Sequence record: NC_054914.1
DNA from: Escherichia phage vB_EcoM-fFiEco06
Direction: 5' to 3' (one strand)
DNA: 64,000 nt
The notes below the pieces were generated by a model, which was not told the DNA's origin, did not search any database, and worked only from the letters and a program-made list of their open reading frames with translations. The first letter of the stretch is position 1, and each line of letters opens with the position of its first letter. Made by a program: the position numbers and the translations under genes. Positions 45,978 through 55,911 of this stretch are shown piece after piece.

Positions 45978-46367
45978 TTAATCCAAAATATTATTAGGCA
46001 TTGGTTGAACACTCACAAGTTCTTTAAAGAACTCAGTAGAGTCAGGCAATTTAACCATTTCCGGAGCATGCTTACTGAATTTATGTTTACATTGACGGCA
46101 TTTATATTCAAGCTCTGGTTTACGCCAGTTAATCAATTGAACTTGTTCAGTTCCACATTCAGGGCAATTAGGAACGTTTTTAGAAGCCCTTTCACGTCGT
46201 TCAACCATAGCCATAATAGCATCCCATGCTGGAGGTTTAAAATCTAAATCGTCGCAGCCGTGAATCTTTCCACGCATTTCCATATCATCTTCCTCACCAG
46301 CCATAATAATTTTAATTAAACTGGAATTACTTGAAGCTGCAATGTCTTCTAATAGACGCTTTTTCAT
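45978..46367 (-). CDS. hypothetical protein with zinc-ribbon motif
   Basis: 129 aa; CPECG ... CRQC. Confidence 0.55.
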
Positions 46368-47293
46368 TTCAATACCTCAATAGCATTACGTAAACCATTT
46401 GCTTTTGCATTAAGAGCTTTTAACAATTTGGTGTGTTCTGCAATTTGGGCTTCAACTTCAATCAAACGAGCATTGAGATATTCGCGTTCTTCACTCAGAT
46501 TATCAGCCTTTTCTGCTTTAGGTTCTTTTACAACTTGCTTATATGTATTAGGGTTCTTCAGTTTAATTAGAATGCGTGAACTGTACAGCATTGAATCATT
46601 ATCTTCGGTTTCGTCATACATTTCCACTACGTCCATCATCTCCACCATCGTGCAGAGTTTATAAGACAACGAACGAATAATTTTGTTGTGCTTATTAATT
46701 TCTCTAGCTGTCATGGTGCCGAGATTACGTGAGTAATAATAAGGAACCTGGATATTAATTAATACTGATGAACCACCTGGCTTGTGTGTTACTTCATCAG
46801 CAATAACCCAATCCTTAACATGAACTGTATTTGTACGGTCATCGCCCGCGGTAAATAGTTTACGAGCATGCTTAAAAAGCATATTCACTTGGTCATTGAA
46901 TTGACAAGCGAATTTATCAGCAAATTTAGTTTCGGGAATGGTAGATAACCAATCAGCCAAATGGGTCTTTTTAACATCGTTAACAATAGTAAATTCAACC
47001 AAATCGGTTATAGATGTCGCAGTTTTAATGAATCTCGGCTTCATAAAGTTTTTAATGTTATCGCGAGCTACAGTAGAAGATAACATACGAGAACGTTTAA
47101 ACCATTCAAGTAAATTGCCTAACGAATGAGAATAAGCGTTCTGAGTATCTTTACAGATATGATTTTCCTGGCCAACATACTGAAGGAAATCACGAAGAAT
47201 ATTATTGATTACTGCTCTGTGTCCTATCTGATAATCACGATGTTTAGTAATAAGACTGTCAAAATAATCAATATAATGTTTACGAGTTTTCAT
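46364..47293 (-). CDS. hypothetical protein with C-terminal coiled coil (paralog family member)
   Basis: 309 aa; C-terminal heptad-like region. Confidence 0.6.
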   Translation of the reverse strand: MKTRKHYIDYFDSLITKHRDYQIGHRAVINNILRDFLQYVGQENHICKDTQNAYSHSLGNLLEWFKRSRMLSSTVARDNIKNFMKPRFIKTATSITDLVEFTIVNDVKKTHLADWLSTIPETKFADKFACQFNDQVNMLFKHARKLFTAGDDRTNTVHVKDWVIADEVTHKPGGSSVLINIQVPYYYSRNLGTMTAREINKHNKIIRSLSYKLCTMVEMMDVVEMYDETEDNDSMLYSSRILIKLKNPNTYKQVVKEPKAEKADNLSEEREYLNARLIEVEAQIAEHTKLLKALNAKANGLRNAIEVLK

Positions 47294-47347
47294 GTTCTTC
47301 TCACTTGGTTAATGGTTTATACTCCGAGCCATCCTTGGCTTTAAATT

Positions 47348-48379
47348 TTACTTAATTAACTGTAAAGCTTGTTCAAGACGATCCAGGCGATTAACAGATT
47401 CTTCCCAAATCCTTTTAGCCTGCTCATATTCTTTCTGTGCTTTATTAGAAATTTCTAGAACTTCTTTATAAGCTTTTTCTAATGCAATAACTTCTGGACG
47501 AATTTCTACCGATTCAGGTGAATCATCAAGATTATCCATTAGTTCCTCAAGGGTAGTTTCTTCTTTAGGGGTATTCACAATTTCTTCACATTTTTGTTGA
47601 TAAATTTCTTTATTAGTAGGTGAGTACGCGCACTTTACTTCACGAAGACTAACTACAATTTTATATCCTTCCCAACCGCATATATTCTTAAAAGGATAAG
47701 TATGAATATTTTCTACCGTTTCCATACAAAGTAATGCAGTCTCTAACTGACGAGTTGTATCACTAGCAATTGAGAAAAATTTATTAATGTTCTTTTGATT
47801 AGCTTCTGGTGTAAAAAATTCATAATTCACAAAAATAGCTGCTTTATTTTTATCAAGTTCATATTCTTTTATGATAATCATATCAGAAGCCAAAGGATGA
47901 ATTTGACGATAATCGCCATAACATAATTTAGAAGCTGATTTTAGAATTTGCTTCTTGAAAAGTCTAAAATTACTAATCCAACGACGAGTAAAAATATTCT
48001 CAGGGTCTTCTTTATTATTAAGATGATAAGAATTAACATCACCGAACCAACTGTATCCTACTACATCTTTGGTTCGTTTAATTTCTTTCCCAAAATTACT
48101 AAGAATATCTTGATTAACTAAATATGAAAGAAGACGAGACCCTTTAAAGGTTTCCTTAATATCATCTTTATCTACACGACTAGAAATTTTATGAACTTCA
48201 TGAATAAATTTGCTGGAAGAAACAATACTTGCATCAGTATTGTTGAGCCACTGATTGATAATAGAAAGAACACTATTCTGACTAGACATAGGTTTAACTT
48301 TATCATCAATAACGCTATTGAATGATTTGATATATTCGTTACGAGTCATATTAATCTCCTCAGTAGAAAGTAAGAACAT
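47348..48379 (-). CDS. hypothetical protein with C-terminal coiled coil (paralog family member)
   Basis: 343 aa; RRWISNFRLFKKQILKSASKL aligns with the next ORF. Confidence 0.6.
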   Translation of the reverse strand: MFLLSTEEINMTRNEYIKSFNSVIDDKVKPMSSQNSVLSIINQWLNNTDASIVSSSKFIHEVHKISSRVDKDDIKETFKGSRLLSYLVNQDILSNFGKEIKRTKDVVGYSWFGDVNSYHLNNKEDPENIFTRRWISNFRLFKKQILKSASKLCYGDYRQIHPLASDMIIIKEYELDKNKAAIFVNYEFFTPEANQKNINKFFSIASDTTRQLETALLCMETVENIHTYPFKNICGWEGYKIVVSLREVKCAYSPTNKEIYQQKCEEIVNTPKEETTLEELMDNLDDSPESVEIRPEVIALEKAYKEVLEISNKAQKEYEQAKRIWEESVNRLDRLEQALQLIK

Positions 48380-48407
48380 TATACCACATCCTTGTGGTAA
48401 AGTAAAC
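48378..48407 (-). promoter_or_regulatory. early promoter, near-identical to the rIIA.1 promoter
   Basis: GTTTAC-N18-TATAAT; ttataccacatccttgtggtaaagtaaacta shared with 2431..2460. Confidence 0.6.
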
Positions 48408-49426
48408 TAGTTCAGCGCATTTAGTGCATTGTTCAATTTAGAACGTTGCTTCGTGAGATTTTTGACTTTTTCTTGAGCTTTTTCTAGCATCTTTTCAGCT
48501 TCTAGCACTTCATTAGTTGCTTTAACGAGTTCATCATCTACTGCCTTGATAGACTTCTCAATCGCATCCGCGTGCCATTTTTCAACAGGTTTAAGACTCG
48601 GATTTTCAATAGGAAGAAAATTCACTTTATTGAATTTCCATGCATCTTTATTACCTGAGCTATACATCCAAAATTTAGGATCGTTTGATGAGCAATTAGA
48701 TAAATTTAAGTTATCTTGCACTTCCTGCTTTTTCTCTTGCGGGACTTCATCCTTTCTCAAAAAATCGTATTTAAATGAAACGATCATATCAAGTTCATAC
48801 GTTGTTGTATGTTCCCAATTTCGCTCAAAATGAGGTAAAATCTTAGACTGAACAGCGGCAACAACATCCATATACTTAAATGCTTCTGTCAACTGTGATT
48901 TAAGGCATTCACAAATTGAAAGAGAATTTTTTGTATTAGGTTTAAAGCTAATTCGTGCAGTTCTATTATTTTCTTTTAATGGTCTTACTTCCATCTGAAG
49001 AGTATAACCATCAAATTTCAGGTTCTTTAAGTTAATGTCAGAACCTTTTAATCGACTAGCCGTCGACAAAATTTGCTTTAATTGTTTACGGAATAGAGCA
49101 ATAAATCTCCATTCAAGACGGTAATGATTTGGATTAAAAAATCCTGTTGATAAATCAACCTTACTCTGACCAACGCCTTGAACAAATAGAGGATTTTTAT
49201 AATCAATAGTTTTACAGAAATCGGTGAGCTGTTCGCGAGCAGTCATTTGCGTAATATATCCAGCTTTATCAAAATGTCGCAGCCATTCACTGCTATTCAT
49301 ATACTTAAAGTGAATGGAACTATTAACTCTATCAGGGTCTAAATTATTTTGGCACAAAAATGTCATAACATCACGAGTATAACTGGCATTACGAACCATA
49401 TCTTCAATTTGAGAACGAGTTTTCAT
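48407..49426 (-). CDS. hypothetical protein with C-terminal coiled coil (paralog family member)
   Basis: 339 aa; RLEWRFIALFRKQLKQILSTASRL. Confidence 0.6.
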   Translation of the reverse strand: MKTRSQIEDMVRNASYTRDVMTFLCQNNLDPDRVNSSIHFKYMNSSEWLRHFDKAGYITQMTAREQLTDFCKTIDYKNPLFVQGVGQSKVDLSTGFFNPNHYRLEWRFIALFRKQLKQILSTASRLKGSDINLKNLKFDGYTLQMEVRPLKENNRTARISFKPNTKNSLSICECLKSQLTEAFKYMDVVAAVQSKILPHFERNWEHTTTYELDMIVSFKYDFLRKDEVPQEKKQEVQDNLNLSNCSSNDPKFWMYSSGNKDAWKFNKVNFLPIENPSLKPVEKWHADAIEKSIKAVDDELVKATNEVLEAEKMLEKAQEKVKNLTKQRSKLNNALNALN

Positions 49427-49434
49427 GGTGTTCC

Positions 49435-50337
49435 TTAAAATTTAAGTAAATCAACGATTTTAATTAATTTTTCACGCTCAGATTTAGCTTTACTACTCAA
49501 TCCAGATAGTCTGAAAATTTCATCATCATATTGCTGAATAGAAATATTTAGCTCTTCAATCTGCTTATTAAAATAAGCAATTTGTTCAGAATGTTTTTCA
49601 TTACTGCGAACTGGTACAGGTTTTGTAGGTAATTTAGATGAACTGGATTCATTCGGGCGATAAATTAAAATACAACTTGAACCAATCGGACATTTAGCAC
49701 CAGATGAATATTCTAATGTTCCAGCTTCTTTTAAAACTTCAAAAGCTAAACAGAGATGATGCCCCATATTGACATAATCTGTAGAGTGAGCTCTGATGTA
49801 ATAATCATCTCCACGAGTACTAAATTTAAAGCATTTAAGGTCTTCTGTATTATTGGTCTTAAAAATCATTTGTTTATCTAGACCTTTAGCTAATCGAGCG
49901 CCTAATGCTAATAATCGTCGTTGATTTTCCCACAAATCCACAATCATTTGGTCAAATGATAATTTCGGCATTAGTCGACCATAAAGGTCATATCCTTTAT
50001 TATAATTGCGAAGGATTTCACTCGCATTAATACGAGACAACGCTCCAATTTTATTAAGGGCTTTCATGATGCGATTAGATAAACCCATTCCAGATCCGTT
50101 TGTTCGTTGCAAATGTTTATCTAATCCAAACCCAATATCAACTTTAAATTTATCTAAAATTTCAGCATGAACATCTCTGTCAATAACATTCAAATCCAAA
50201 GTTGGGTTAAATCTATGAAAAAATTTATCTGGCTCTCCACGACGAAGTACAGTCCATTCATTTAATTTTTTATTAACTAAAGATTTAATTACTGCATTGA
50301 CATTATTAATTACTACTGACATATTTTTCTCACTCAA
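49435..50337 (-). CDS. hypothetical protein with C-terminal coiled coil (paralog family member)
   Basis: 300 aa; LWENQRRLLALGARLAKGL. Confidence 0.6.
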   Translation of the reverse strand: MSEKNMSVVINNVNAVIKSLVNKKLNEWTVLRRGEPDKFFHRFNPTLDLNVIDRDVHAEILDKFKVDIGFGLDKHLQRTNGSGMGLSNRIMKALNKIGALSRINASEILRNYNKGYDLYGRLMPKLSFDQMIVDLWENQRRLLALGARLAKGLDKQMIFKTNNTEDLKCFKFSTRGDDYYIRAHSTDYVNMGHHLCLAFEVLKEAGTLEYSSGAKCPIGSSCILIYRPNESSSSKLPTKPVPVRSNEKHSEQIAYFNKQIEELNISIQQYDDEIFRLSGLSSKAKSEREKLIKIVDLLKF

Positions 50338-50738
50338 TTTTCAATTTTACTAAATACACAGAATATGATGGAAAAGACTATATAAGCACCGCATACAGAT
50401 TGAACTAATACCATTCCAAAGAACCAAACAATATTATCAAACAATGTCTGTTTTACGTCGAAAGGACGTAAACTTACAGTAATATTATCGCCTTTTTCTA
50501 TTGATGAATACATCTCTGGTGAAATATATTCACTAAATCTATAACCGTCTTTGAGTTCATATACGGCAATAAACGATAAACTAGACCCCTTTCCTTGAGT
50601 TCCTGTAAGGGTATTAACTACAGTAACATCATAATCTTTATAATGCATATAATCATTAATTGCATAATAACCATATGCAACTACTACACATAAACAACAT
50701 ATCAATAAATTCAATCTTTTAATTATCAACTGTTTCAT
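50334..50738 (-). CDS. membrane protein
   Basis: 134 aa with N- and C-terminal hydrophobic segments. Confidence 0.55.
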   Translation of the reverse strand: MKQLIIKRLNLLICCLCVVVAYGYYAINDYMHYKDYDVTVVNTLTGTQGKGSSLSFIAVYELKDGYRFSEYISPEMYSSIEKGDNITVSLRPFDVKQTLFDNIVWFFGMVLVQSVCGAYIVFSIIFCVFSKIEN

Positions 50739-50793
50739 AATAATCTCAATTAAAAGGGCTTAGAACCATTATACCATCCTTGGTATAAAGCGG

Positions 50794-51321
50794 TTATGCG
50801 AGTACCGTCTTTAACCGTTCTTCAAACTTCCGAAGAGTATTTTGGCGTTCAGCTCTTTGCTTTTTGTAAGTTTCAATACGCTCTGAAATGAGAGTGTATC
50901 GTTCATTTACTGATTCTTTCATAAAATCAGGAATTTCACGAGAAGCTTTAATCTCGTCAAATTTATCAATAACTGCTTGCTCTTCAGCAATTAAGTTATC
51001 ATACATCAAAATATCTTTCTTGATGAACTCAATATCTTCTTGAGTTACACGAGATAATTTAGATGCTTTATCCTTTTTGTACTGTTCGTTAGTATCACGA
51101 GACCAGTGTAATGTACGATTTTTATTCGTATTCTTGTAAATTTCTACAATACCAATCTCATCGATAATAACGATCCAATTCCAACGAGATTTGTAAATTT
51201 GTCCTCCGTCAACCGTGATTTCACCTCCGATTGAGATGTCATTAAAGAACTTGCTTTGTGCTTCAGATTTAAATTTACCATCGTTGTAATTTACCAGGTT
51301 GAAAATATCTTTAGCGTTCAT
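50794..51321 (-). CDS. hypothetical protein
   Basis: 175 aa ORF downstream of an early promoter. Confidence 0.55.
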   Translation of the reverse strand: MNAKDIFNLVNYNDGKFKSEAQSKFFNDISIGGEITVDGGQIYKSRWNWIVIIDEIGIVEIYKNTNKNRTLHWSRDTNEQYKKDKASKLSRVTQEDIEFIKKDILMYDNLIAEEQAVIDKFDEIKASREIPDFMKESVNERYTLISERIETYKKQRAERQNTLRKFEERLKTVLA

Positions 51322-51349
51322 TTTGTGTTCCTCCGTAGTTGATAGTTGT

Positions 51350-51379
51350 ATAGTACCACAGAGGAACAGTCTTGTAAAC
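51350..51379 (-). promoter_or_regulatory. early promoter (second copy of repeated cassette)
   Basis: GTTTAC-N18-TACTAT; 42 nt identical to 25621..25662. Confidence 0.6.
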
Positions 51380-51381
51380 CA

Positions 51382-51696
51382 CTAAAAGAAACTTCTTTCA
51401 CAATTTTTTCCACTGAACCATGCGCTTACCGCTTTCTTAGTCTCAGGAGCAGTGTTATCCATAAACCATTCAAAGGCAGCCTTTTTATGATTCTGGAGGG
51501 CTTCTCGGGCTTTAATCTGCTCACGGTCTATTAACACTAACATATGAGCCTTTCTTGTCACCATGGGCTTCTTATGATTTTTTGAATACTCCCAGTCATT
51601 TGTCCATCGCATTGTCGTTGCGAACTTAAATACTGCTTCTTTAATTTTAGTTTCGTAAATTTCACGAGCCTTTGAGTATAACATCATTACCTCCAT
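51382..51696 (-). CDS. hypothetical protein
   Basis: 104 aa ORF. Confidence 0.5.
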   Translation of the reverse strand: MEVMMLYSKAREIYETKIKEAVFKFATTMRWTNDWEYSKNHKKPMVTRKAHMLVLIDREQIKAREALQNHKKAAFEWFMDNTAPETKKAVSAWFSGKNCERSFF

Positions 51697-51786
51697 TCAC
51701 CAGTTTAATTCTAGTCATCTTTTTAATGGCAGTCCATATAATCTATTTCTGAACTGCCTTTTTGTCATAGAAGTCCTCTTATGAAT

Positions 51787-52755
51787 TTATTTCAGAAGAG
51801 TAACCTCAGCGATTTCTTCCCAACCGTTTTTGTCGGTCATAATAAAGTCAGCAAGATAAAGAGCAGTACGCAGTGAAACATTGCGTAAACGATTAACATT
51901 AACTTTCATCCATGATAATGCTTTATAAGTTTCTTCATCAGAAAGACCGCGCTTTTGCATCATGTCGGTTGAAAGAATAACATCTTCAACCCTGACCATA
52001 ATTTCTTCATTAGTGTGAACACCCAAATCTAAATAAACTGAGCGGGACACTAATGCTTGTAAATGTGGAGCAAGTTTAGTACCACGGTCTAATTCGCGGT
52101 CAATATCAACGTTTGTGATAAAAACAATCGTTCCTTTAAATTCAAACTCACGCTCAATGCCTTTTTCTTCTAAGTAAGAAGATGCAGTGCTCCAGCAGAC
52201 TTTACGGGTCTCTCCAGTGTCCAGAGCAGCTTTCAGAAGATTAAGAATGTCCATATCAGAGAAAACATCCACATCATCAATCAAAAGGACAGAATTCTCT
52301 TCACGATTATTCCAAAGTTGTTCATAAAGACCGATACCGGAGATTTTACCGTTAATGCTTTTATATTCAATGTATCCATTATCATTTGCTTTATTCAAAG
52401 CTTTATCTAAAGAATACGTTTTACCAATACCCGCCGCACCAGAGATAATTAATGAACGAATGTTTCCGTTAATAATACCATTCGTCATCATTCCCATAAC
52501 ATTAAATCTTTTATTAATGCGGGTTTTCATATCTTCATATGATTCTTTAACTTCTTCAACTTTTACACCATCATATGAAATGTCTGATTTGTAAACCCAA
52601 ACACCGCGACGCTTACCGTCAATTTCAACAAAAACTTTACCATCTCCTTGTGCATCTACCGGAGCATTATCTGGGAACCATTCACCTAAGAGCTCAAAAG
52701 TTCCAGAGATTTCTTTACCGAAGTAGATACCCTTATTGATAGTTACAGTTTTCAT
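51787..52755 (-). CDS. P-loop NTPase (AAA-like ATPase)
   Basis: Walker A GAAGIGKT and Walker B LLIDDVD; ATG at 52755 with GGAG Shine-Dalgarno, track start 52773 is GTG. Confidence 0.65.
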   Translation of the reverse strand: MKTVTINKGIYFGKEISGTFELLGEWFPDNAPVDAQGDGKVFVEIDGKRRGVWVYKSDISYDGVKVEEVKESYEDMKTRINKRFNVMGMMTNGIINGNIRSLIISGAAGIGKTYSLDKALNKANDNGYIEYKSINGKISGIGLYEQLWNNREENSVLLIDDVDVFSDMDILNLLKAALDTGETRKVCWSTASSYLEEKGIEREFEFKGTIVFITNVDIDRELDRGTKLAPHLQALVSRSVYLDLGVHTNEEIMVRVEDVILSTDMMQKRGLSDEETYKALSWMKVNVNRLRNVSLRTALYLADFIMTDKNGWEEIAEVTLLK

Positions 52756-52791
52756 TTTATTCTCCAATCTCACATTTGTTTTGATAGGGTA

Positions 52792-52821
52792 ATAGTATCA
52801 CACTACTACCCTTCTGTAAAC
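52792..52821 (-). promoter_or_regulatory. early promoter upstream of the ATPase
   Basis: GTTTAC-N18-TACTAT. Confidence 0.55.
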
Positions 52822-52824
52822 AAT

Positions 52825-53088
52825 TTATTTTAACGTTCGCCAAATTTTTACTGCTTCACGGCGAGATACTTCTACAGCTCCAAGTTCTACAGCTTTTTGG
52901 CGTCGGCGAGCGTGTAAGTCATAATGTTTAATGCGTTTATCTTGAAACCAAGAACGTTTCATTCCTATTGCTTCTGCCATTTCATGAAGCTCTTCAATAT
53001 CTCCATCAGTGAACATATGACAATTTTTAGTTGGATGACCGCGAAGTTTCCATCCATGATTCATTAAAACATCTACGTAAACTGTCAT
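52825..53088 (-). CDS. hypothetical protein
   Basis: 87 aa ORF. Confidence 0.5.
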   Translation of the reverse strand: MTVYVDVLMNHGWKLRGHPTKNCHMFTDGDIEELHEMAEAIGMKRSWFQDKRIKHYDLHARRRQKAVELGAVEVSRREAVKIWRTLK

Positions 53089-53234
53089 TGATTCTTCTCC
53101 AAATAAGTTTCGATAATTTTCTGAGCGAGATAAACTGCATTATCTTCAGTTGCATCTTCTAAGAAACTTTCAAAACACTCTGAAATTTCTTCTGTATCAA
53201 TCAACTTTTTTACTTCAATTGGTGTAATTTTCAT
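53085..53234 (-). CDS. small acidic hypothetical protein
   Basis: track ORF begins upstream of the promoter -10 at 53272; internal ATG at 53234 gives 49 aa. Confidence 0.4.
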   Translation of the reverse strand: MKITPIEVKKLIDTEEISECFESFLEDATEDNAVYLAQKIIETYLEKNQ

Positions 53235-53271
53235 TTTGTTTTTCCGTTTAAGTGTTTGTTTTGATAGTTGT

Positions 53272-53301
53272 ATAGTACCATAAAGCTTTATGCTTGTAAA
53301 C
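53272..53301 (-). promoter_or_regulatory. early promoter (partial copy of repeated cassette)
   Basis: GTTTAC-N18-TACTAT. Confidence 0.55.
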
Positions 53302-53330
53302 AATTTTGTGAAAAATTTTTGAAATAAAAA

Positions 53331-53350
53331 AGGGAGCCCGAAGGCTCCCT
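53331..53350 (-). terminator. rho-independent terminator after the nucleotidyltransferase gene
   Basis: RNA AGGGAGCC-UUCG-GGCUCCCU followed by UUUUUUAUUU. Confidence 0.7.
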
Positions 53351-53351
53351 A

Positions 53352-54365
53352 TCATTTATAATAACTTCGGTGGTTTTCAAGATAAACCCTCTCAAGGAAG
53401 TCATCCCAAAAACCCATGTCTACTTTTTGCTGCATACCGTTCTTAGAAGCTTCAGTAGATGCTGCTTCTACTTGATCGACCACATCTTCCAAAAACTCTT
53501 GAACCGTTTTAAATGGATGTTTACCCAACTTCACGTCGAGAATAAATGGAGCATCTTGGAGTGGATAAACCAAGTCACCAGTTTTGTAAATTTCCAATAG
53601 TTGGAGTCCACCACGGCAAGCATGACTCAGAGCTTTCCAGTCAATACCTTCATTGGCTTCGGCCTTACGAGCACGTTCACCGTATTCAGCATCTAATTTG
53701 TTCAGTGACTGCTTAAGCTCAATAAGAGAAAGCGTTGTCTGATATTTACGACCCAACACTGTGTAGAACGTCTGTGGGCCTGTTTTCTCATGATTATGGA
53801 ACACCCATTCACAGAATTCGTTTTCTGGAAGACGATGCTTAATATCTTCAACTTTAGTACGACGCTGCTTAATAGAACCATCTTCTTGGTAATCAACCCA
53901 TTGCTCAGGGATTTGATTAACTACTTTCAATACATCACGTAATGCAGCCAAACGAGAACCCTTAACGCCGTATTTAGAAGCTTGCTTACGGACATATCCT
54001 AAATAGGATTTCATGTTAGTCGTATAAAAACGAGAACGGTTGTCTTGAATAAACTTCCACACATCAGGCAAATCAGATTTAACCACTAGTTCAGGTGGAG
54101 TGTGAAGCATATCTAACGCTACAGTTTCACCATCTGCTGCTAATTTAAAGAAATATTTAAGACTGTATAGTTCATGGTCAATATCATCTTTAGTGTTTTT
54201 AGATGATGTGTTGTTAGTGTTTTTACTCATGTGCTCTTTAACATTTCCGATAAGAATATCACGAGCAGGAGGAACAAAGATTTCTTTAAAATCTACATCA
54301 GATTCTGGGGTAGAAGTTCCATAAAGATGACTACCAAAATAGCTTTTCATTACTGTTTTCATCAT
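53352..54365 (-). CDS. Pol-beta-superfamily nucleotidyltransferase
   Basis: 337 aa; N-terminal GS-x11-DVD in YFGSHLYGTSTPESDVDFKEIFV. Confidence 0.6.
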   Translation of the reverse strand: MMKTVMKSYFGSHLYGTSTPESDVDFKEIFVPPARDILIGNVKEHMSKNTNNTSSKNTKDDIDHELYSLKYFFKLAADGETVALDMLHTPPELVVKSDLPDVWKFIQDNRSRFYTTNMKSYLGYVRKQASKYGVKGSRLAALRDVLKVVNQIPEQWVDYQEDGSIKQRRTKVEDIKHRLPENEFCEWVFHNHEKTGPQTFYTVLGRKYQTTLSLIELKQSLNKLDAEYGERARKAEANEGIDWKALSHACRGGLQLLEIYKTGDLVYPLQDAPFILDVKLGKHPFKTVQEFLEDVVDQVEAASTEASKNGMQQKVDMGFWDDFLERVYLENHRSYYK

Positions 54366-54823
54366 TCAGCCTTATATTCAATAACAGGACATACTTTAGC
54401 TTTACGAGCTTTTAAAAATTCAACGATAATCGATTTCTTGGGTTGAATAGGAGGTAAACCTTTATACGCCCTATCAATATTTTCTACGTGTAAAGCATAA
54501 TCCTTTTTCCATTTATAATCTTTATATTTTTCACGCAGTTGTGCAGGAATAACAAATGAACCGATAATAAGTAAAACAAGCAAAATGGCAAGTATAAATG
54601 CTGATGGAATAAGAGTCCATAAACTACCAAAAATAAGCCATTTCTGTATGATTTCTGCGCAGATGATAGTTAGACCTACGAGTATAGTACATCCGAAAAA
54701 AGAAACGAAAAATGTAGGGATAACAATAGACCAAAAGTATGCGCACAGCGTCTTAGGTCGTTGCCATTCATCGTTAAACAATTTGAATAATTTATAGTGC
54801 CAAGAGTTTTCATTAATAATCAT
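54362..54823 (-). CDS. membrane protein
   Basis: 153 aa with several hydrophobic helices. Confidence 0.55.
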   Translation of the reverse strand: MIINENSWHYKLFKLFNDEWQRPKTLCAYFWSIVIPTFFVSFFGCTILVGLTIICAEIIQKWLIFGSLWTLIPSAFILAILLVLLIIGSFVIPAQLREKYKDYKWKKDYALHVENIDRAYKGLPPIQPKKSIIVEFLKARKAKVCPVIEYKAE

Positions 54824-54825
54824 AA

Positions 54826-55347
54826 TTATCCTTTCATTGAAGGTGTAACAGTTGTTAAATACTTAATCATAGCTTCAGCTTCTGATTTTGATAATGAAAT
54901 TTCTTCATTGTTTTGACGAATAGAAATAAAATCCGGATGACGGTCACCACCAGCTTTTAAAACACACATATAAGTATCAGTTTCATCTTCAATATCTGAA
55001 ATGATTGAAGCAGTTCCACATGAATGCGGTTTTTGATAAATCAATACAGCTTTTCTTCCGCCATTTGACTGTTCATAAACTTTTAATACATCAAACAAAT
55101 CACTTCTTTTATCAATAGCTAAAATGTTATTTTCATCTTCAATGTTAAATCCTTCGGATACTTCATAAAGTGTCACCCATAAATCGCCAATATCAATAAC
55201 AGCGTTCACTTTTCCATGACTTTCAAGAGCATGACAAATTTTCTTGATTTCGTCATAACTCATTTTAATAATATCATCTCCTTGAATAAGAAAGATGTCA
55301 TTTTTAAATTCAACACGAATTAAACCACTTCCACTTGAAATAAACAT
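54826..55347 (-). CDS. hypothetical protein (paralog pair member)
   Basis: 173 aa; C-terminus ISLSKSEAEAMIKYLTTVTPSM parallels next ORF. Confidence 0.55.
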   Translation of the reverse strand: MFISSGSGLIRVEFKNDIFLIQGDDIIKMSYDEIKKICHALESHGKVNAVIDIGDLWVTLYEVSEGFNIEDENNILAIDKRSDLFDVLKVYEQSNGGRKAVLIYQKPHSCGTASIISDIEDETDTYMCVLKAGGDRHPDFISIRQNNEEISLSKSEAEAMIKYLTTVTPSMKG

Positions 55348-55353
55348 ATTTCC

Positions 55354-55911
55354 TCACTTTGAAATCATAGTTGGAATGACAGAATCGAGATAAGTCTTTA
55401 GCGCAATAGCTTCGTCTTTGGTAAATGTGACAATATACGATCGAAAATCATCAATTTGACGAATAGTTAAGACATCACCATCTTCATAGCATTTTGATAC
55501 GTTTAAAACAGTTTCATCATTCTGATTGCAAGCGTTAGTAATAATAGCATTGCAATTTTTGAGCCATTTTAAACTATGTTTTCTTTCATTAGAATAATAA
55601 AAATATTTAATCTTATCTATAAAACTATCCCAATGGATAACTGATAAACACATTGACTCACTTTTAATATTAAATCCTGGGCATGAAGAATAAAAATGAA
55701 TTTTGTGCTCATCATTGATGCTTACTATTTTATCAGTATAAGGATATTCAATTTGGGTTAAATGAATGATTTCACTAGGCGTAAAATATAGCATATCGTC
55801 TTCTTGTGTCAAACGATACATATTATTTACTTTTTCTATAGCTAATTCACCAAAAAGCGGACTAACTTCTAATACTAATCGTTTCATATTGATTCTCTTC
55901 GACTCACCCAC
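55354..55911 (-). CDS. hypothetical protein (paralog pair member)
   Basis: 185 aa; C-terminus VTFTKDEAIALKTYLDSVIPTM. Confidence 0.55.
   Translation of the reverse strand: MGESKRINMKRLVLEVSPLFGELAIEKVNNMYRLTQEDDMLYFTPSEIIHLTQIEYPYTDKIVSINDEHKIHFYSSCPGFNIKSESMCLSVIHWDSFIDKIKYFYYSNERKHSLKWLKNCNAIITNACNQNDETVLNVSKCYEDGDVLTIRQIDDFRSYIVTFTKDEAIALKTYLDSVIPTMISK

What the first reader, a model, noticed from the sequence alone, without database searches (positions are those of the whole stretch)
53352..54365. Pol-beta-superfamily nucleotidyltransferase with its own terminator
The N-terminus has GS-x11-DVD (YFGSHLYGTSTPESDVDFKEIFV), the hallmark of Pol-beta-type nucleotidyltransferases (a superfamily that includes MNT toxins, CCA-adding enzymes, OAS/cGAS-like enzymes). 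About 250 residues downstream of the core are uncharacterised. A phage-encoded NTase in an accessory block could modify nucleic acids or make or destroy a signalling nucleotide.
Basis: partly seen in the sequence, partly recalled or inferred. Interest (0 to 1): 0.6.

Follow-up and report, generated by a model that had tools for sequence, protein, structure and literature searches.

The report
T4 NrdC.11, an RlaP-family RNA nucleotidyltransferase

Summary
A 337-codon ORF on the minus strand (53352-54365) starts with G11-S12-x10-D23-V-D25, and a strong intrinsic terminator follows it. The spacer is x10, not x11.

The window is bases 1-64000 of Escherichia phage vB_EcoM-fHoEco02, a Tequatrovirus. 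The ORF is the orthologue of T4 nrdC.11, which has been flagged as a nucleotidyltransferase since 2006. It scores above threshold against Pfam PF10127 (RlaP). A December 2025 preprint names T4 NrdC.11 as an RlaP and shows that bacterial RlaPs add 1-2 NMP to RNA 3'-OH ends.

Cellular homologues of this long clade lie next to RtcB, Pnkp/Hen1 or Ro60 in 15 of 80 loci, and often have a canonical short RlaP in tandem. The phage encodes PseT, RnlA and RnlB elsewhere.

Best reading: an RNA-end fill-in enzyme of phage tRNA repair. The activity of the phage protein itself is untested. Already known; low interest.

The parts
53352..54365 (-). CDS of the NrdC.11 orthologue. It is 337 aa from the first ATG; the record annotates 336 aa from the second ATG at 54362. 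The stop is TGA at 53354-53352.
   Evidence: It is 99% identical to the phage T2/T4-group protein cluster P0001.
54362..54365 (-). ATGA overlap of the NrdC.11 start codon with the stop codon of the upstream 153-aa membrane-protein ORF. This indicates translational coupling, with no promoter of its own.
   Evidence: The minus strand reads ...CTGAATGATGAAAA; ORF table.
53961..54347 (-). Residues 7-135: the Pol-beta NTase core plus the first helices. This is the part that matches the RlaP profile.
   Evidence: PF10127 match to residues 7-135, profile positions 23-142 of 249, 44.3 bits. hhalign to canonical RlaP gives 94% probability, E 1.2e-7. The model has strands 3-10, 24-31, 45-49 and 62-68.
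54330..54335 (-). G11-S12 of the hG[GS] NTase motif.
   Evidence: Invariant in 141 homologues. Aligned with the G-S of ESGSRAWGF in canonical RlaP.
54291..54299 (-). D23-V24-D25, the two metal-binding carboxylates.
   Evidence: 99% conserved. Aligned with the invariant D50-x-D52 of canonical RlaP.
54177..54185 (-). D61-I62-D63 on strand 62-68. D63 is the candidate third catalytic carboxylate.
   Evidence: D61 is 95% and D63 97% conserved. D63 aligns with the invariant D83 of canonical RlaP.
53739..53903 (-). Residues 155-209: a beta-rich insert that is absent from the 249-position RlaP profile and is the least conserved part of the protein.
   Evidence: AF2 strands 155-159, 165-169, 185-192, 196-203 and 206-209. 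The mean top-residue frequency is 0.25 against 0.41-0.55 elsewhere. Canonical RlaPs are 252-289 aa.
53358..53726 (-). Residues 214-336: the C-terminal helical region. It includes the clade signature D242-W-K-A-x-S-H248-A-x-R251 at 53613-53642.
   Evidence: Helices 214-236, 243-262, 272-279, 285-308 and 317-336. H248 and R251 are invariant. The DWKAx[SH]HAxR pattern retrieved 156 homologues in genomes.
53321..53350 (-). Intrinsic terminator: an 8-bp stem with 6 G-C pairs and a UUCG loop, followed by UUUUUUAUUU.
   Evidence: The same stem-loop and U-tract follow nrdC.11 in T4.
53272..53300 (-). T4-early-type promoter-like site (TTTACA-17-TACTAT, with TG) that starts the next transcription unit. 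It is not part of the gene but defines its 3' boundary.
   Evidence: The promoter-like site (GTTTACA-17-TACTAT) is also present in T4. A second copy lies at 52792-52820.

Best explanation
The ORF encodes the NrdC.11 protein of a T4-type phage. It is a long-form member of the RlaP (PF10127) family of Pol-beta nucleotidyltransferases.

Proposed mechanism, with the basis for each step:
1. The G11-S12 / D23-x-D25 / D63 site binds NTP with two divalent metals. The residues are shown; the chemistry is inferred.
2. The enzyme adds one or two untemplated nucleotides to the 3'-OH of a broken RNA, most likely the 5' half of a tRNA cut in its anticodon loop. This is inferred from the activity measured for two bacterial RlaPs.
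3. The order of events would be as follows. T4 PseT (Pnkp) removes the 2',3'-cyclic phosphate and phosphorylates the 5' end. NrdC.11 refills a nucleotide that a nucleotide-excising anticodon nuclease of the RloC type has removed. RnlA or RnlB then seals the nick. This pathway is inferred.

It would therefore be a conditional counter-defence accessory of the phage tRNA-repair pathway. It is dispensable in laboratory hosts.
For: Identity:
- The window is 100% identical to MG781191.1, and the CDS is annotated there as NrdC.11 / Nuc-transf.
- T4 has the same gene and the same terminator.

Family:
- PF10127 scores above its gathering cutoff, and 140 of 141 diverse homologues hit it.
- hhalign to canonical RlaP gives 94% probability with motif-by-motif equivalence: GS, DxD, D63=D83, D85=E105, T89-P90=S109-P110.
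- A confident model (pLDDT 94.9) has an NTase core plus a helical domain.
- Fold matches are all Pol-beta NTases.

Published work:
- PMC12776372 names T4 NrdC.11 as an RlaP (SSN cluster 5).
- The same preprint shows that PfRlaP and PaRlaP add 1-2 NMP to RNA 3'-OH, prefer Mn2+ and a cleaved-tRNA mimic, and do not use DNA or protein acceptors.
- PMC7824862 predicts the same role in jumbo phages.

Context for this clade specifically:
- 15 of 80 cellular loci carry RtcB, Pnkp, Hen1 or TROVE/Ro60 within 8 kb. The figure is 10 of the 48 loci with at least 3 kb on both flanks.
- The partner gene is directly adjacent in several of these loci, and they span at least 8 orders.
- Vibrio phage 11895-B1 has a run of AAA_33 kinase-like P-loop, CCA-adding enzyme, hydrolase, NrdC.11-like.

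Partners in this phage:
- pseT, rnlA and rnlB are all present.
- The three genes have near-identical record counts per Straboviridae host genus.
- A 3'-OH product suits the 5'-P/3'-OH ligases RnlA and RnlB. The preprint notes that it does not suit RtcB.

Rationale: RloC excises the wobble nucleotide, a lesion proposed to defeat T4 repair (PMC2610378).
Against: - No experiment exists on any phage NrdC.11. The preprint calls it 'RlaP of unknown function'.
- Only the N-terminal ~130 residues align to RlaP by sequence. The C-terminal half did not align in hhalign.
- The clade has a ~55-residue beta insert of unknown role.
- The PfRlaP coordinates are not in the PDB copy, so the folds could not be superposed.
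- In the phage the gene is about 80 kb from pseT and rnlA, so the family's name-giving ligase linkage is absent here.
- Co-occurrence within Straboviridae is not independent evidence, because all three genes are near-core there.
- 65 of the 80 cellular loci show no recognisable RNA-repair neighbour.
- The closest solved structure is HalB, a DNA-synthesising NTase.
Confidence: 0.55

Rival explanations
1. It acts on RNA 3' ends, but not as a pre-ligation fill-in step. Instead it would maintain or tail the 3' ends of phage or host tRNAs or other RNAs. Examples would be repairing acceptor ends alongside CCA-adding enzymes, or marking RNAs.
For: Bacterial RlaPs label full-length tRNAs and rRNA-sized species as well as fragments. 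In Vibrio phage 11895-B1 the homologue sits in one gene run with a CCA-adding enzyme, near tRNA genes. In T4-type phages it is unlinked to the ligases.
Against: Bacterial RlaPs prefer the broken anticodon-loop end over the acceptor end of a cleaved-tRNA mimic. Clade homologues sit next to ligase systems (RtcB, Pnkp/Hen1), not only next to end-maturation enzymes.
Confidence: 0.15
2. It is a HalB-like template-independent synthase that makes oligodeoxynucleotides or other oligonucleotides. These could act, for example, as a decoy that keeps DNA-gated defence effectors such as Hailong HalA silent.
Against: There is no PADLOC hit. No HalA-like partner is conserved: the upstream neighbour is a membrane protein here, MobD in T4 and small unrelated ORFs in Proteus and Acinetobacter phages. 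Sequence places the protein in RlaP, not HalB. Bacterial RlaPs add only 1-2 nt and do not use DNA acceptors.
Confidence: 0.05
3. It is a protein-AMPylating NTase of the MNT or DrrA type that neutralises a host toxin, for example a HEPN-domain RNase.
Against: At 337 aa with a large helical domain it is not a minimal NTase. There is no HEPN neighbour. The window protein has no PF01909 hit. Bacterial RlaPs did not label E. coli proteins.
Confidence: 0.05
4. One reading: a cGAS/CD-NTase- or OAS-like enzyme that makes, mimics or depletes an immune signalling nucleotide.
For: Only the shared Pol-beta superfamily fold.
Confidence: 0.03
5. A small-molecule nucleotidyltransferase of the aminoglycoside ANT(4') or lincosamide LinB type.
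For: KNTase is the top Foldseek hit (E 4.7e-3), and LinB and AadA also appear in the list.
Against: TM-scores are low (0.30), rmsd is 11 A and identity 8%, so this reflects a generic two-domain NTase architecture. There is no rationale in a lytic phage, and the neighbours of homologues are RNA enzymes.
Confidence: 0.02

Closest known systems
Phage T4 NrdC.11 (38.9 kDa protein between nrdC.10 and mobD)
   Same: It is the orthologue. The closest protein cluster (named for phage T2, P0001) is 99% identical, and the DNA of this region is about 96% identical to T4 over the parts that match. The length is the same. The same terminator stem-loop and promoter-like site follow it, and nrdC.10 lies downstream.
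   Different: In T4 the upstream gene is the homing endonuclease mobD. Here it is a 153-aa membrane protein plus an extra y05I-like gene. Here a two-gene cassette (a small ORF plus DUF4031) separates it from nrdC.10.
Bacterial RlaP (PF10127), e.g. Pseudomonas fluorescens PfRlaP and P. aeruginosa PaRlaP (PMC12776372)
   Same: The NTase core and family motifs match, as does the architecture of an N-terminal NTase with a C-terminal helical domain. The Pfam match is above threshold. Clade homologues are linked to RtcB, Pnkp/Hen1 and Ro60.
   Different: It is about 70-85 residues longer and has a beta-rich insert (residues 155-209). The C-terminal half is not alignable by sequence. It falls in a different SSN cluster (5 against 1a). 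It is not next to a ligase in the phage, and its activity is untested.
HalB of the Hailong anti-phage system (PDB 9dbh/9dbj)
   Different: Identity is only 16%. No HalA partner is present and there is no PADLOC hit. HalB makes tyrosine-primed oligo-dA, whereas RlaPs extend RNA by 1-2 nt.
Kanamycin nucleotidyltransferase ANT(4') and related two-domain NTases (3c18, LinB, AadA, Tam41)
   Same: They share the generic architecture of an N-terminal NTase with a helical C-terminal domain.
   Different: TM is about 0.3, identity 8-10%, and the substrates differ. No sequence-level relationship was detected.
Class II CCA-adding enzymes / poly(A) polymerase head domain (PF01743)
   Same: They are Pol-beta superfamily enzymes that add untemplated nucleotides to RNA 3'-OH ends. 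One co-occurs with an NrdC.11-like gene in the same gene run in Vibrio phage 11895-B1.
   Different: NrdC.11 has no PF01743 match, and its C-terminal domains are different.

Membership tests
[quoted passage not shown] | Sequence match to the family profile above the curated threshold | tested here: met
   44.3 bits against a cutoff of 23, E 2.4e-11, but only profile positions 23-142 of 249 are matched. 140 of 141 homologues also match. hhalign to canonical RlaPs gives 94% probability, E 1.2e-7, over 85 columns.
[quoted passage not shown] | Three conserved catalytic carboxylates with the hG[GS] motif | tested here: met
   G11 and S12 are invariant. D23 and D25 are 99% conserved, and D63 is 97% conserved and aligned to the invariant D83 of canonical RlaP.
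[quoted passage not shown] | N-terminal NTase domain plus a C-terminal helical domain, closed by a final helix as in the PfRlaP crystal structure | tested here: inconclusive
   The AF2 model has the NTase core, a helical C-terminal half and a long last helix (317-336), plus an extra beta insert. The PfRlaP coordinates are not in the PDB copy, so no superposition was possible.
[quoted passage not shown] | Gene neighbourhood with RNA ligases or RNA-repair genes | tested here: inconclusive
   Not met in this window: pseT, rnlA and rnlB lie about 50-80 kb away. Met for the same clade elsewhere: RtcB in 8 loci, Pnkp in 7, Hen1 in 5 and TROVE in 5, for a union of 15 of 80. There is also a kinase-like P-loop / CCA-enzyme run in a Vibrio phage.
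[quoted passage not shown] | Adds 1-2 NMP to RNA 3'-OH, with a preference for Mn2+ | not testable with these tools
   Shown only for PfRlaP and PaRlaP (PMC12776372).
cGAS/DncV-like CD-NTases and OAS-type signalling synthases | Profile or fold match to CD-NTase/Mab21/OAS, with a partner effector gene | tested here: not met
MNT (minimal NTase) antitoxins of HEPN-MNT modules | A small NTase of about 100-150 aa (PF01909/PF18765) paired with a HEPN gene | tested here: not met
   The protein is 337 aa. The window protein has no PF01909 or PF18765 hit, and only 3 and 2 of 141 homologues have one. No HEPN neighbour. The fold match is weak (probability 0.69).
Hailong HalB | An NTase encoded next to the HalA membrane channel, recognised by defence-system models | tested here: not met
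Class II CCA-adding enzyme / poly(A) polymerase | PolyA_pol head domain (PF01743) with the RNA-binding body domains | tested here: not met
   No PF01743 hit for NrdC.11. A genuine PF01743 protein is a separate gene beside the homologue in Vibrio phage 11895-B1.

The most novel reading that the evidence does not exclude
NrdC.11 may not be a simple RNA fill-in enzyme. It could be a HalB-like template-independent synthase whose oligonucleotide product acts as a decoy or antidote against a host defence, with the clade-specific beta insert conferring that specificity. A milder variant is that the long-form clade has a substrate or nucleotide specificity distinct from canonical RlaP. That would explain why cells so often encode a long and a short RlaP in tandem.
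Probability: 0.06. Interest if true: 0.75.

Novelty: already known. Interest (0 to 1): 0.2.

Why it matters
If the proposed role is right, NrdC.11 would be a third enzyme of the classic T4 tRNA-repair pathway (Pnkp plus Rnl1). It would answer an old question raised with RloC: whether phages can reverse anticodon nucleases that excise a nucleotide rather than just nick the tRNA. That is directly testable with a T4 deletion mutant. However, the hypothesis is already in print (Burroughs and Aravind 2016, as cited in PMC12776372, and PMC7824862). The gene is a long-annotated, near-core gene of T4-like phages. This finding therefore adds confirmation and some context rather than a discovery.

Tried and rejected
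- phmmer of the protein, and hmmsearch of both the NrdC.11-clade profile and a canonical-RlaP profile, against PDB sequences found nothing meaningful. The PfRlaP crystal structure could therefore not be used.
- The AFDB50 fold library was unavailable.
- NCBIfam and PADLOC gave no hits.
- Burroughs and Aravind 2016 is not held in the paper library. Its content is cited only through papers that quote it.
- hhalign linked only the N-terminal 85 columns to canonical RlaP. I could not show sequence homology of the C-terminal halves.
- Counting RnlA, PseT and NrdC.11 across phage records gave matching numbers per host genus. I reject this as independent evidence, because all three genes are near-core in Straboviridae.
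- A Pfam census of 127 same-strand genes within 1.2 kb of the cellular homologues found no further dominant partner. The best were RTC cyclase, RNase III, DEAD helicase and UDG, at 2-3 loci each.
- I considered a HalA-like role for the upstream membrane protein and rejected it. It has no PDB relative and is not a conserved neighbour.
- I considered a functional link to NrdC.10 and left it open. A terminator and promoter separate the two genes. Synteny holds in Acinetobacter phage Ac42, but no nrdC.10 is annotated in the 2.5 kb shown downstream in Proteus phage Pm5461.

Full report
**What the window and the ORF are**

Bases 53200-54560 are 100% identical to Escherichia phage vB_EcoM-fHoEco02 (MG781191.1, Tequatrovirus) at the same coordinates. 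The window is therefore the first 64 kb of that genome. The surrounding minus-strand gene order is tk, rI.1, rI, rI.-1, mobD.x, nrdC.11, nrdC.10 ... nrdC.3. This is the T4 early-gene arrangement.

The ORF in the finding runs 53352..54365 on the minus strand and is 337 aa. The record annotates it from the second ATG as HE2_096, 'Member of Nuc-transf superfamily; NrdC.11'. Its product name, 'thioredoxin', is wrong and was evidently copied from nrdC. T4 has the same gene between mobD and nrdC.10.

**Checking the observation**

The N-terminus is MMKTVMKSYFGSHLYGTSTPESDVDFKEIFV. G11-S12 and D23-V-D25 are ten residues apart, not eleven.

On its own the motif is weak evidence:
- GS-x9-13-DxD occurs in 2.6% of shuffles of this protein.
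- The looser superfamily pattern occurs in 16% of shuffles.
- Among the 83 ORFs of at least 100 aa in the window, only this one has the strict motif.

Homology is what makes it real:
- PF10127 (RlaP) scores 44.3 bits against a cutoff of 23.
- PHROG 388 'nucleotidyltransferase' scores 457 bits.
- tblastn finds matches in 1516 phage records, down to 29% identity.
- An exhaustive HMMER search finds 3421 50%-identity cluster representatives, 827 of them below 1e-30.
- In an alignment of 141 diverse full-length homologues, G11 and S12 are invariant, and D23, D25, D61, D63 and D85 are 95-99% conserved.

The terminator is also real:
- The stem AGGGAGCC-UUCG-GGCUCCCU lies at 53350..53331 on the minus strand, one unpaired base after the stop codon, and is followed by UUUUUUAUUU.
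- It folds at -17.7 kcal/mol with z = -4.3.
- The same terminator stem-loop follows nrdC.11 in T4, together with a downstream T4-early-type promoter-like site.

The gene has no promoter of its own. Its ATG overlaps the stop codon of the upstream ORF (ATGA). The terminator therefore closes a longer early transcription unit.

**Structure**

An AlphaFold2 model built on the 141-sequence alignment is confident, with mean pLDDT 94.9 and pTM 0.85. It shows three parts:
- A Pol-beta NTase core. It has strands 3-10, 24-31, 45-49 and 62-68, the GS turn after strand 1, D23/D25 at the start of strand 2, and D61/D63 at the start of the fourth strand.
- A beta-rich insert at residues 155-209. This is the least conserved region (mean top-residue frequency 0.25).
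- A helical C-terminal half (214-336) that carries the clade signature DWKAxSHAxR, with H248 and R251 invariant.

**Family placement**

I took canonical short RlaPs (252-289 aa, 175-253 bits to PF10127 over the whole profile) from bacterial loci. A profile-profile comparison with the NrdC.11 clade gives 94% probability and E 1.2e-7 over the N-terminal 85 columns. The correspondences are:

| NrdC.11 | Canonical RlaP |
|---|---|
| G11-S12 | G-S of ESGSRAWGF |
| D23/D25 | D50/D52 |
| D63 | D83 |
| D85 | E105 |
| T89-P90 | S109-P110 |

The C-terminal halves do not align by sequence. NrdC.11 is thus a long-form RlaP with an insert.

This matches the literature:
- nrdC.11 orthologues were matched to the COG3541 nucleotidyltransferase domain in 2006 (PMC1524935).
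- A December 2025 preprint places 'T4NrdC.11' in cluster 5 of the PF10127 similarity network (PMC12776372).
- That preprint shows that two Pseudomonas RlaPs add one or two NMP to RNA 3'-OH ends and prefer Mn2+.
- The same enzymes prefer the broken anticodon-loop end of a cleaved-tRNA mimic.
- They do not use DNA or protein acceptors.
- They partly restore aminoacylation of a tRNA that lacks one anticodon-loop nucleotide.
- The phage protein itself is called 'of unknown function' there.

**New context gathered here**

A pattern scan of one genome per prokaryotic species found 156 relatives, of which 80 loci were kept. They are 32-54% identical over essentially the full length and come from very diverse bacterial and archaeal assemblies. 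I clustered the flanking ORFs and confirmed family assignments with Pfam. The counts of loci with each neighbour are:

| Neighbour | Loci (of 80) |
|---|---|
| RtcB | 8 |
| Bacterial Pnkp (kinase-phosphatase-ligase) | 7 |
| Hen1 | 5 |
| TROVE/Ro60 | 5 |
| Any of these four | 15 |

- The union is 10 of the 48 loci with at least 3 kb on both flanks.
- The partner gene is directly adjacent in several of these loci, and they span at least eight orders.
- I estimate that four single-copy families within +/-8 kb of a random gene in a 4-Mb genome would give about one locus in 80 by chance. This is my own inference, not a computed result.
- In about 17-19 loci a canonical short RlaP follows immediately downstream, often with overlapping stop and start codons. 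An example is the run Hen1-Pnkp-long RlaP-short RlaP in L054.
- T4-type phages have only the long form. Canonical RlaP is found in 86 phage records, largely jumbo phages of about 260-350 kb such as phiKZ, and in none from Escherichia.
- In Vibrio phage 11895-B1 the homologue closes a gene run consisting of an AAA_33 kinase-like P-loop protein, a CCA-adding enzyme and a 'hydrolase'.
- This phage encodes PseT, RnlA and RnlB at 132-136 kb and 105 kb.
- The three repair genes and NrdC.11 have almost identical record counts per Straboviridae host genus. That is compatible with a joint function but is not independent evidence.

**Mechanism proposed**

- Shown: membership of the Pol-beta/RlaP family, intact catalytic residues, strong conservation, a terminator-bounded early gene, and association of the clade with RNA-repair genes.
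- Inferred from family biochemistry: Mn2+-dependent untemplated addition of 1-2 nucleotides to RNA 3'-OH.
- Inferred pathway: after an anticodon nuclease cuts a tRNA and removes a nucleotide, PseT dephosphorylates the 3' end and phosphorylates the 5' end. NrdC.11 refills the gap, and RnlA or RnlB seals it. RloC excises the wobble base, a lesion suggested to defeat T4 repair (PMC2610378).

The 3'-OH product fits the phage's 5'-P/3'-OH ligases better than it fits RtcB. The preprint itself raises this difficulty for RtcB. The T4 nrdC.11-mobD.3 block can be deleted (PMC9825161), as expected for a conditional counter-defence gene. I put this explanation at 0.55.

**Rivals**

| Rival | Confidence | Main point |
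|---|---|---|
| RNA 3'-end maintenance or tailing without ligation | 0.15 | Supported by the CCA-enzyme neighbour and by labelling of intact tRNAs |
| HalB-like oligonucleotide synthesis | 0.05 | Rests on the fold match only; no partner gene, no defence-model hit |
| Protein AMPylation of MNT or DrrA type | 0.05 | Weak fold matches only |
| Small-molecule adenylylation | 0.02 | Generic architecture match only |

**Verdict**

The more exciting signalling reading is unsupported. The gene is the known NrdC.11 / RlaP of T4-like phages, so the novelty class is 'already known' and interest is low (0.2). Two minor points appear new relative to the papers I could read, and they concern homologues rather than this window: the frequent tandem long-plus-short RlaP pair in cellular RNA-repair operons, and the clade-specific beta insert.

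Noticed in passing
window 52825-53303 (minus strand), with repeats at 52775-52800 and 53255-53280: A two-gene cassette lies between nrdC.11 and nrdC.10 and is absent from T4. It holds a small ORF (49 aa as annotated, 72 aa from an upstream TTG) and an 87-aa DUF4031 protein (PF13223, 77.7 bits). It is bracketed by two copies of an early-promoter-like block (ATTGTTTACA-N17-TACTAT-...CTATCAAAACAAA), the first preceded by the nrdC.11 terminator. This looks like a cassette inserted by recombination between promoter/stem-loop elements. DUF4031 has no known function.
   Followed up: partly
window 51787-52773 (minus strand): NrdC.10 (328 aa) is a P-loop ATPase. It has only sub-threshold hits to AAA and novel-STAND NTPase models (nSTAND3 at 22.3 bits, AAA_16, AAA_14), and its PHROG 1250 has unknown function. 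It stays near nrdC.11 in Acinetobacter phage Ac42, but no nrdC.10 is annotated in the 2.5 kb shown downstream in Proteus phage Pm5461.
   Followed up: partly
window 54362-55911 (minus strand): T4 has the homing endonuclease mobD upstream of nrdC.11. This phage instead has a 153-aa membrane protein (PHROG 944) and two adjacent paralogous genes with T4_y05I_N and T4_y05I_C domains (173 and 185 aa, 'putative transcription factor' Pfam families).
   Followed up: partly
MG781191.1 annotation of window 46364-54362: In the part of the record examined, all genes from nrdC.3 to nrdC.11 carry the product name 'thioredoxin', and many other phage records do the same. This is an annotation error propagated from the gene-name prefix nrdC. 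None of the proteins I scanned (NrdC.10, NrdC.11) is a thioredoxin.
   Followed up: yes
Loci L054 (4088-9802), L037 (3558-16629), L080 and L074; about 17-19 of the 80 loci L003-L082: In cellular genomes the NrdC.11-type long RlaP is often followed immediately by a canonical short RlaP, frequently with overlapping stop and start codons, inside RNA-repair clusters. L054 reads Hen1-Pnkp-long RlaP-short RlaP. L037 combines TROVE/Ro60, RtcB, both RlaPs, Hen1 and Pnkp within 13 kb. The preprint on RlaP does not mention such pairs.
   Followed up: partly
L084 (Vibrio phage 11895-B1) 1805-5921: The gene run reads AAA_33 kinase-like P-loop protein, CCA-adding enzyme (PolyA_pol head, interrupted by an HNH endonuclease insertion), a 154-aa 'hydrolase' with no Pfam match, and an NrdC.11-like RlaP. 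tRNA genes lie about 5 kb away. It looks like an RNA-end healing cluster in a phage whose record carries no family-level classification (not placed in Straboviridae).
   Followed up: partly
L003 6141-7331 (Bacilli MAG contig next to a 54%-identical NrdC.11 homologue): The neighbour is a TET-associated glycosyltransferase (PF20691, E 5.9e-39). This suggests the contig is a phage with hypermodified DNA that was binned into a bacterial MAG. Several of the closest 'genome' hits are probably viral contigs.
   Followed up: no
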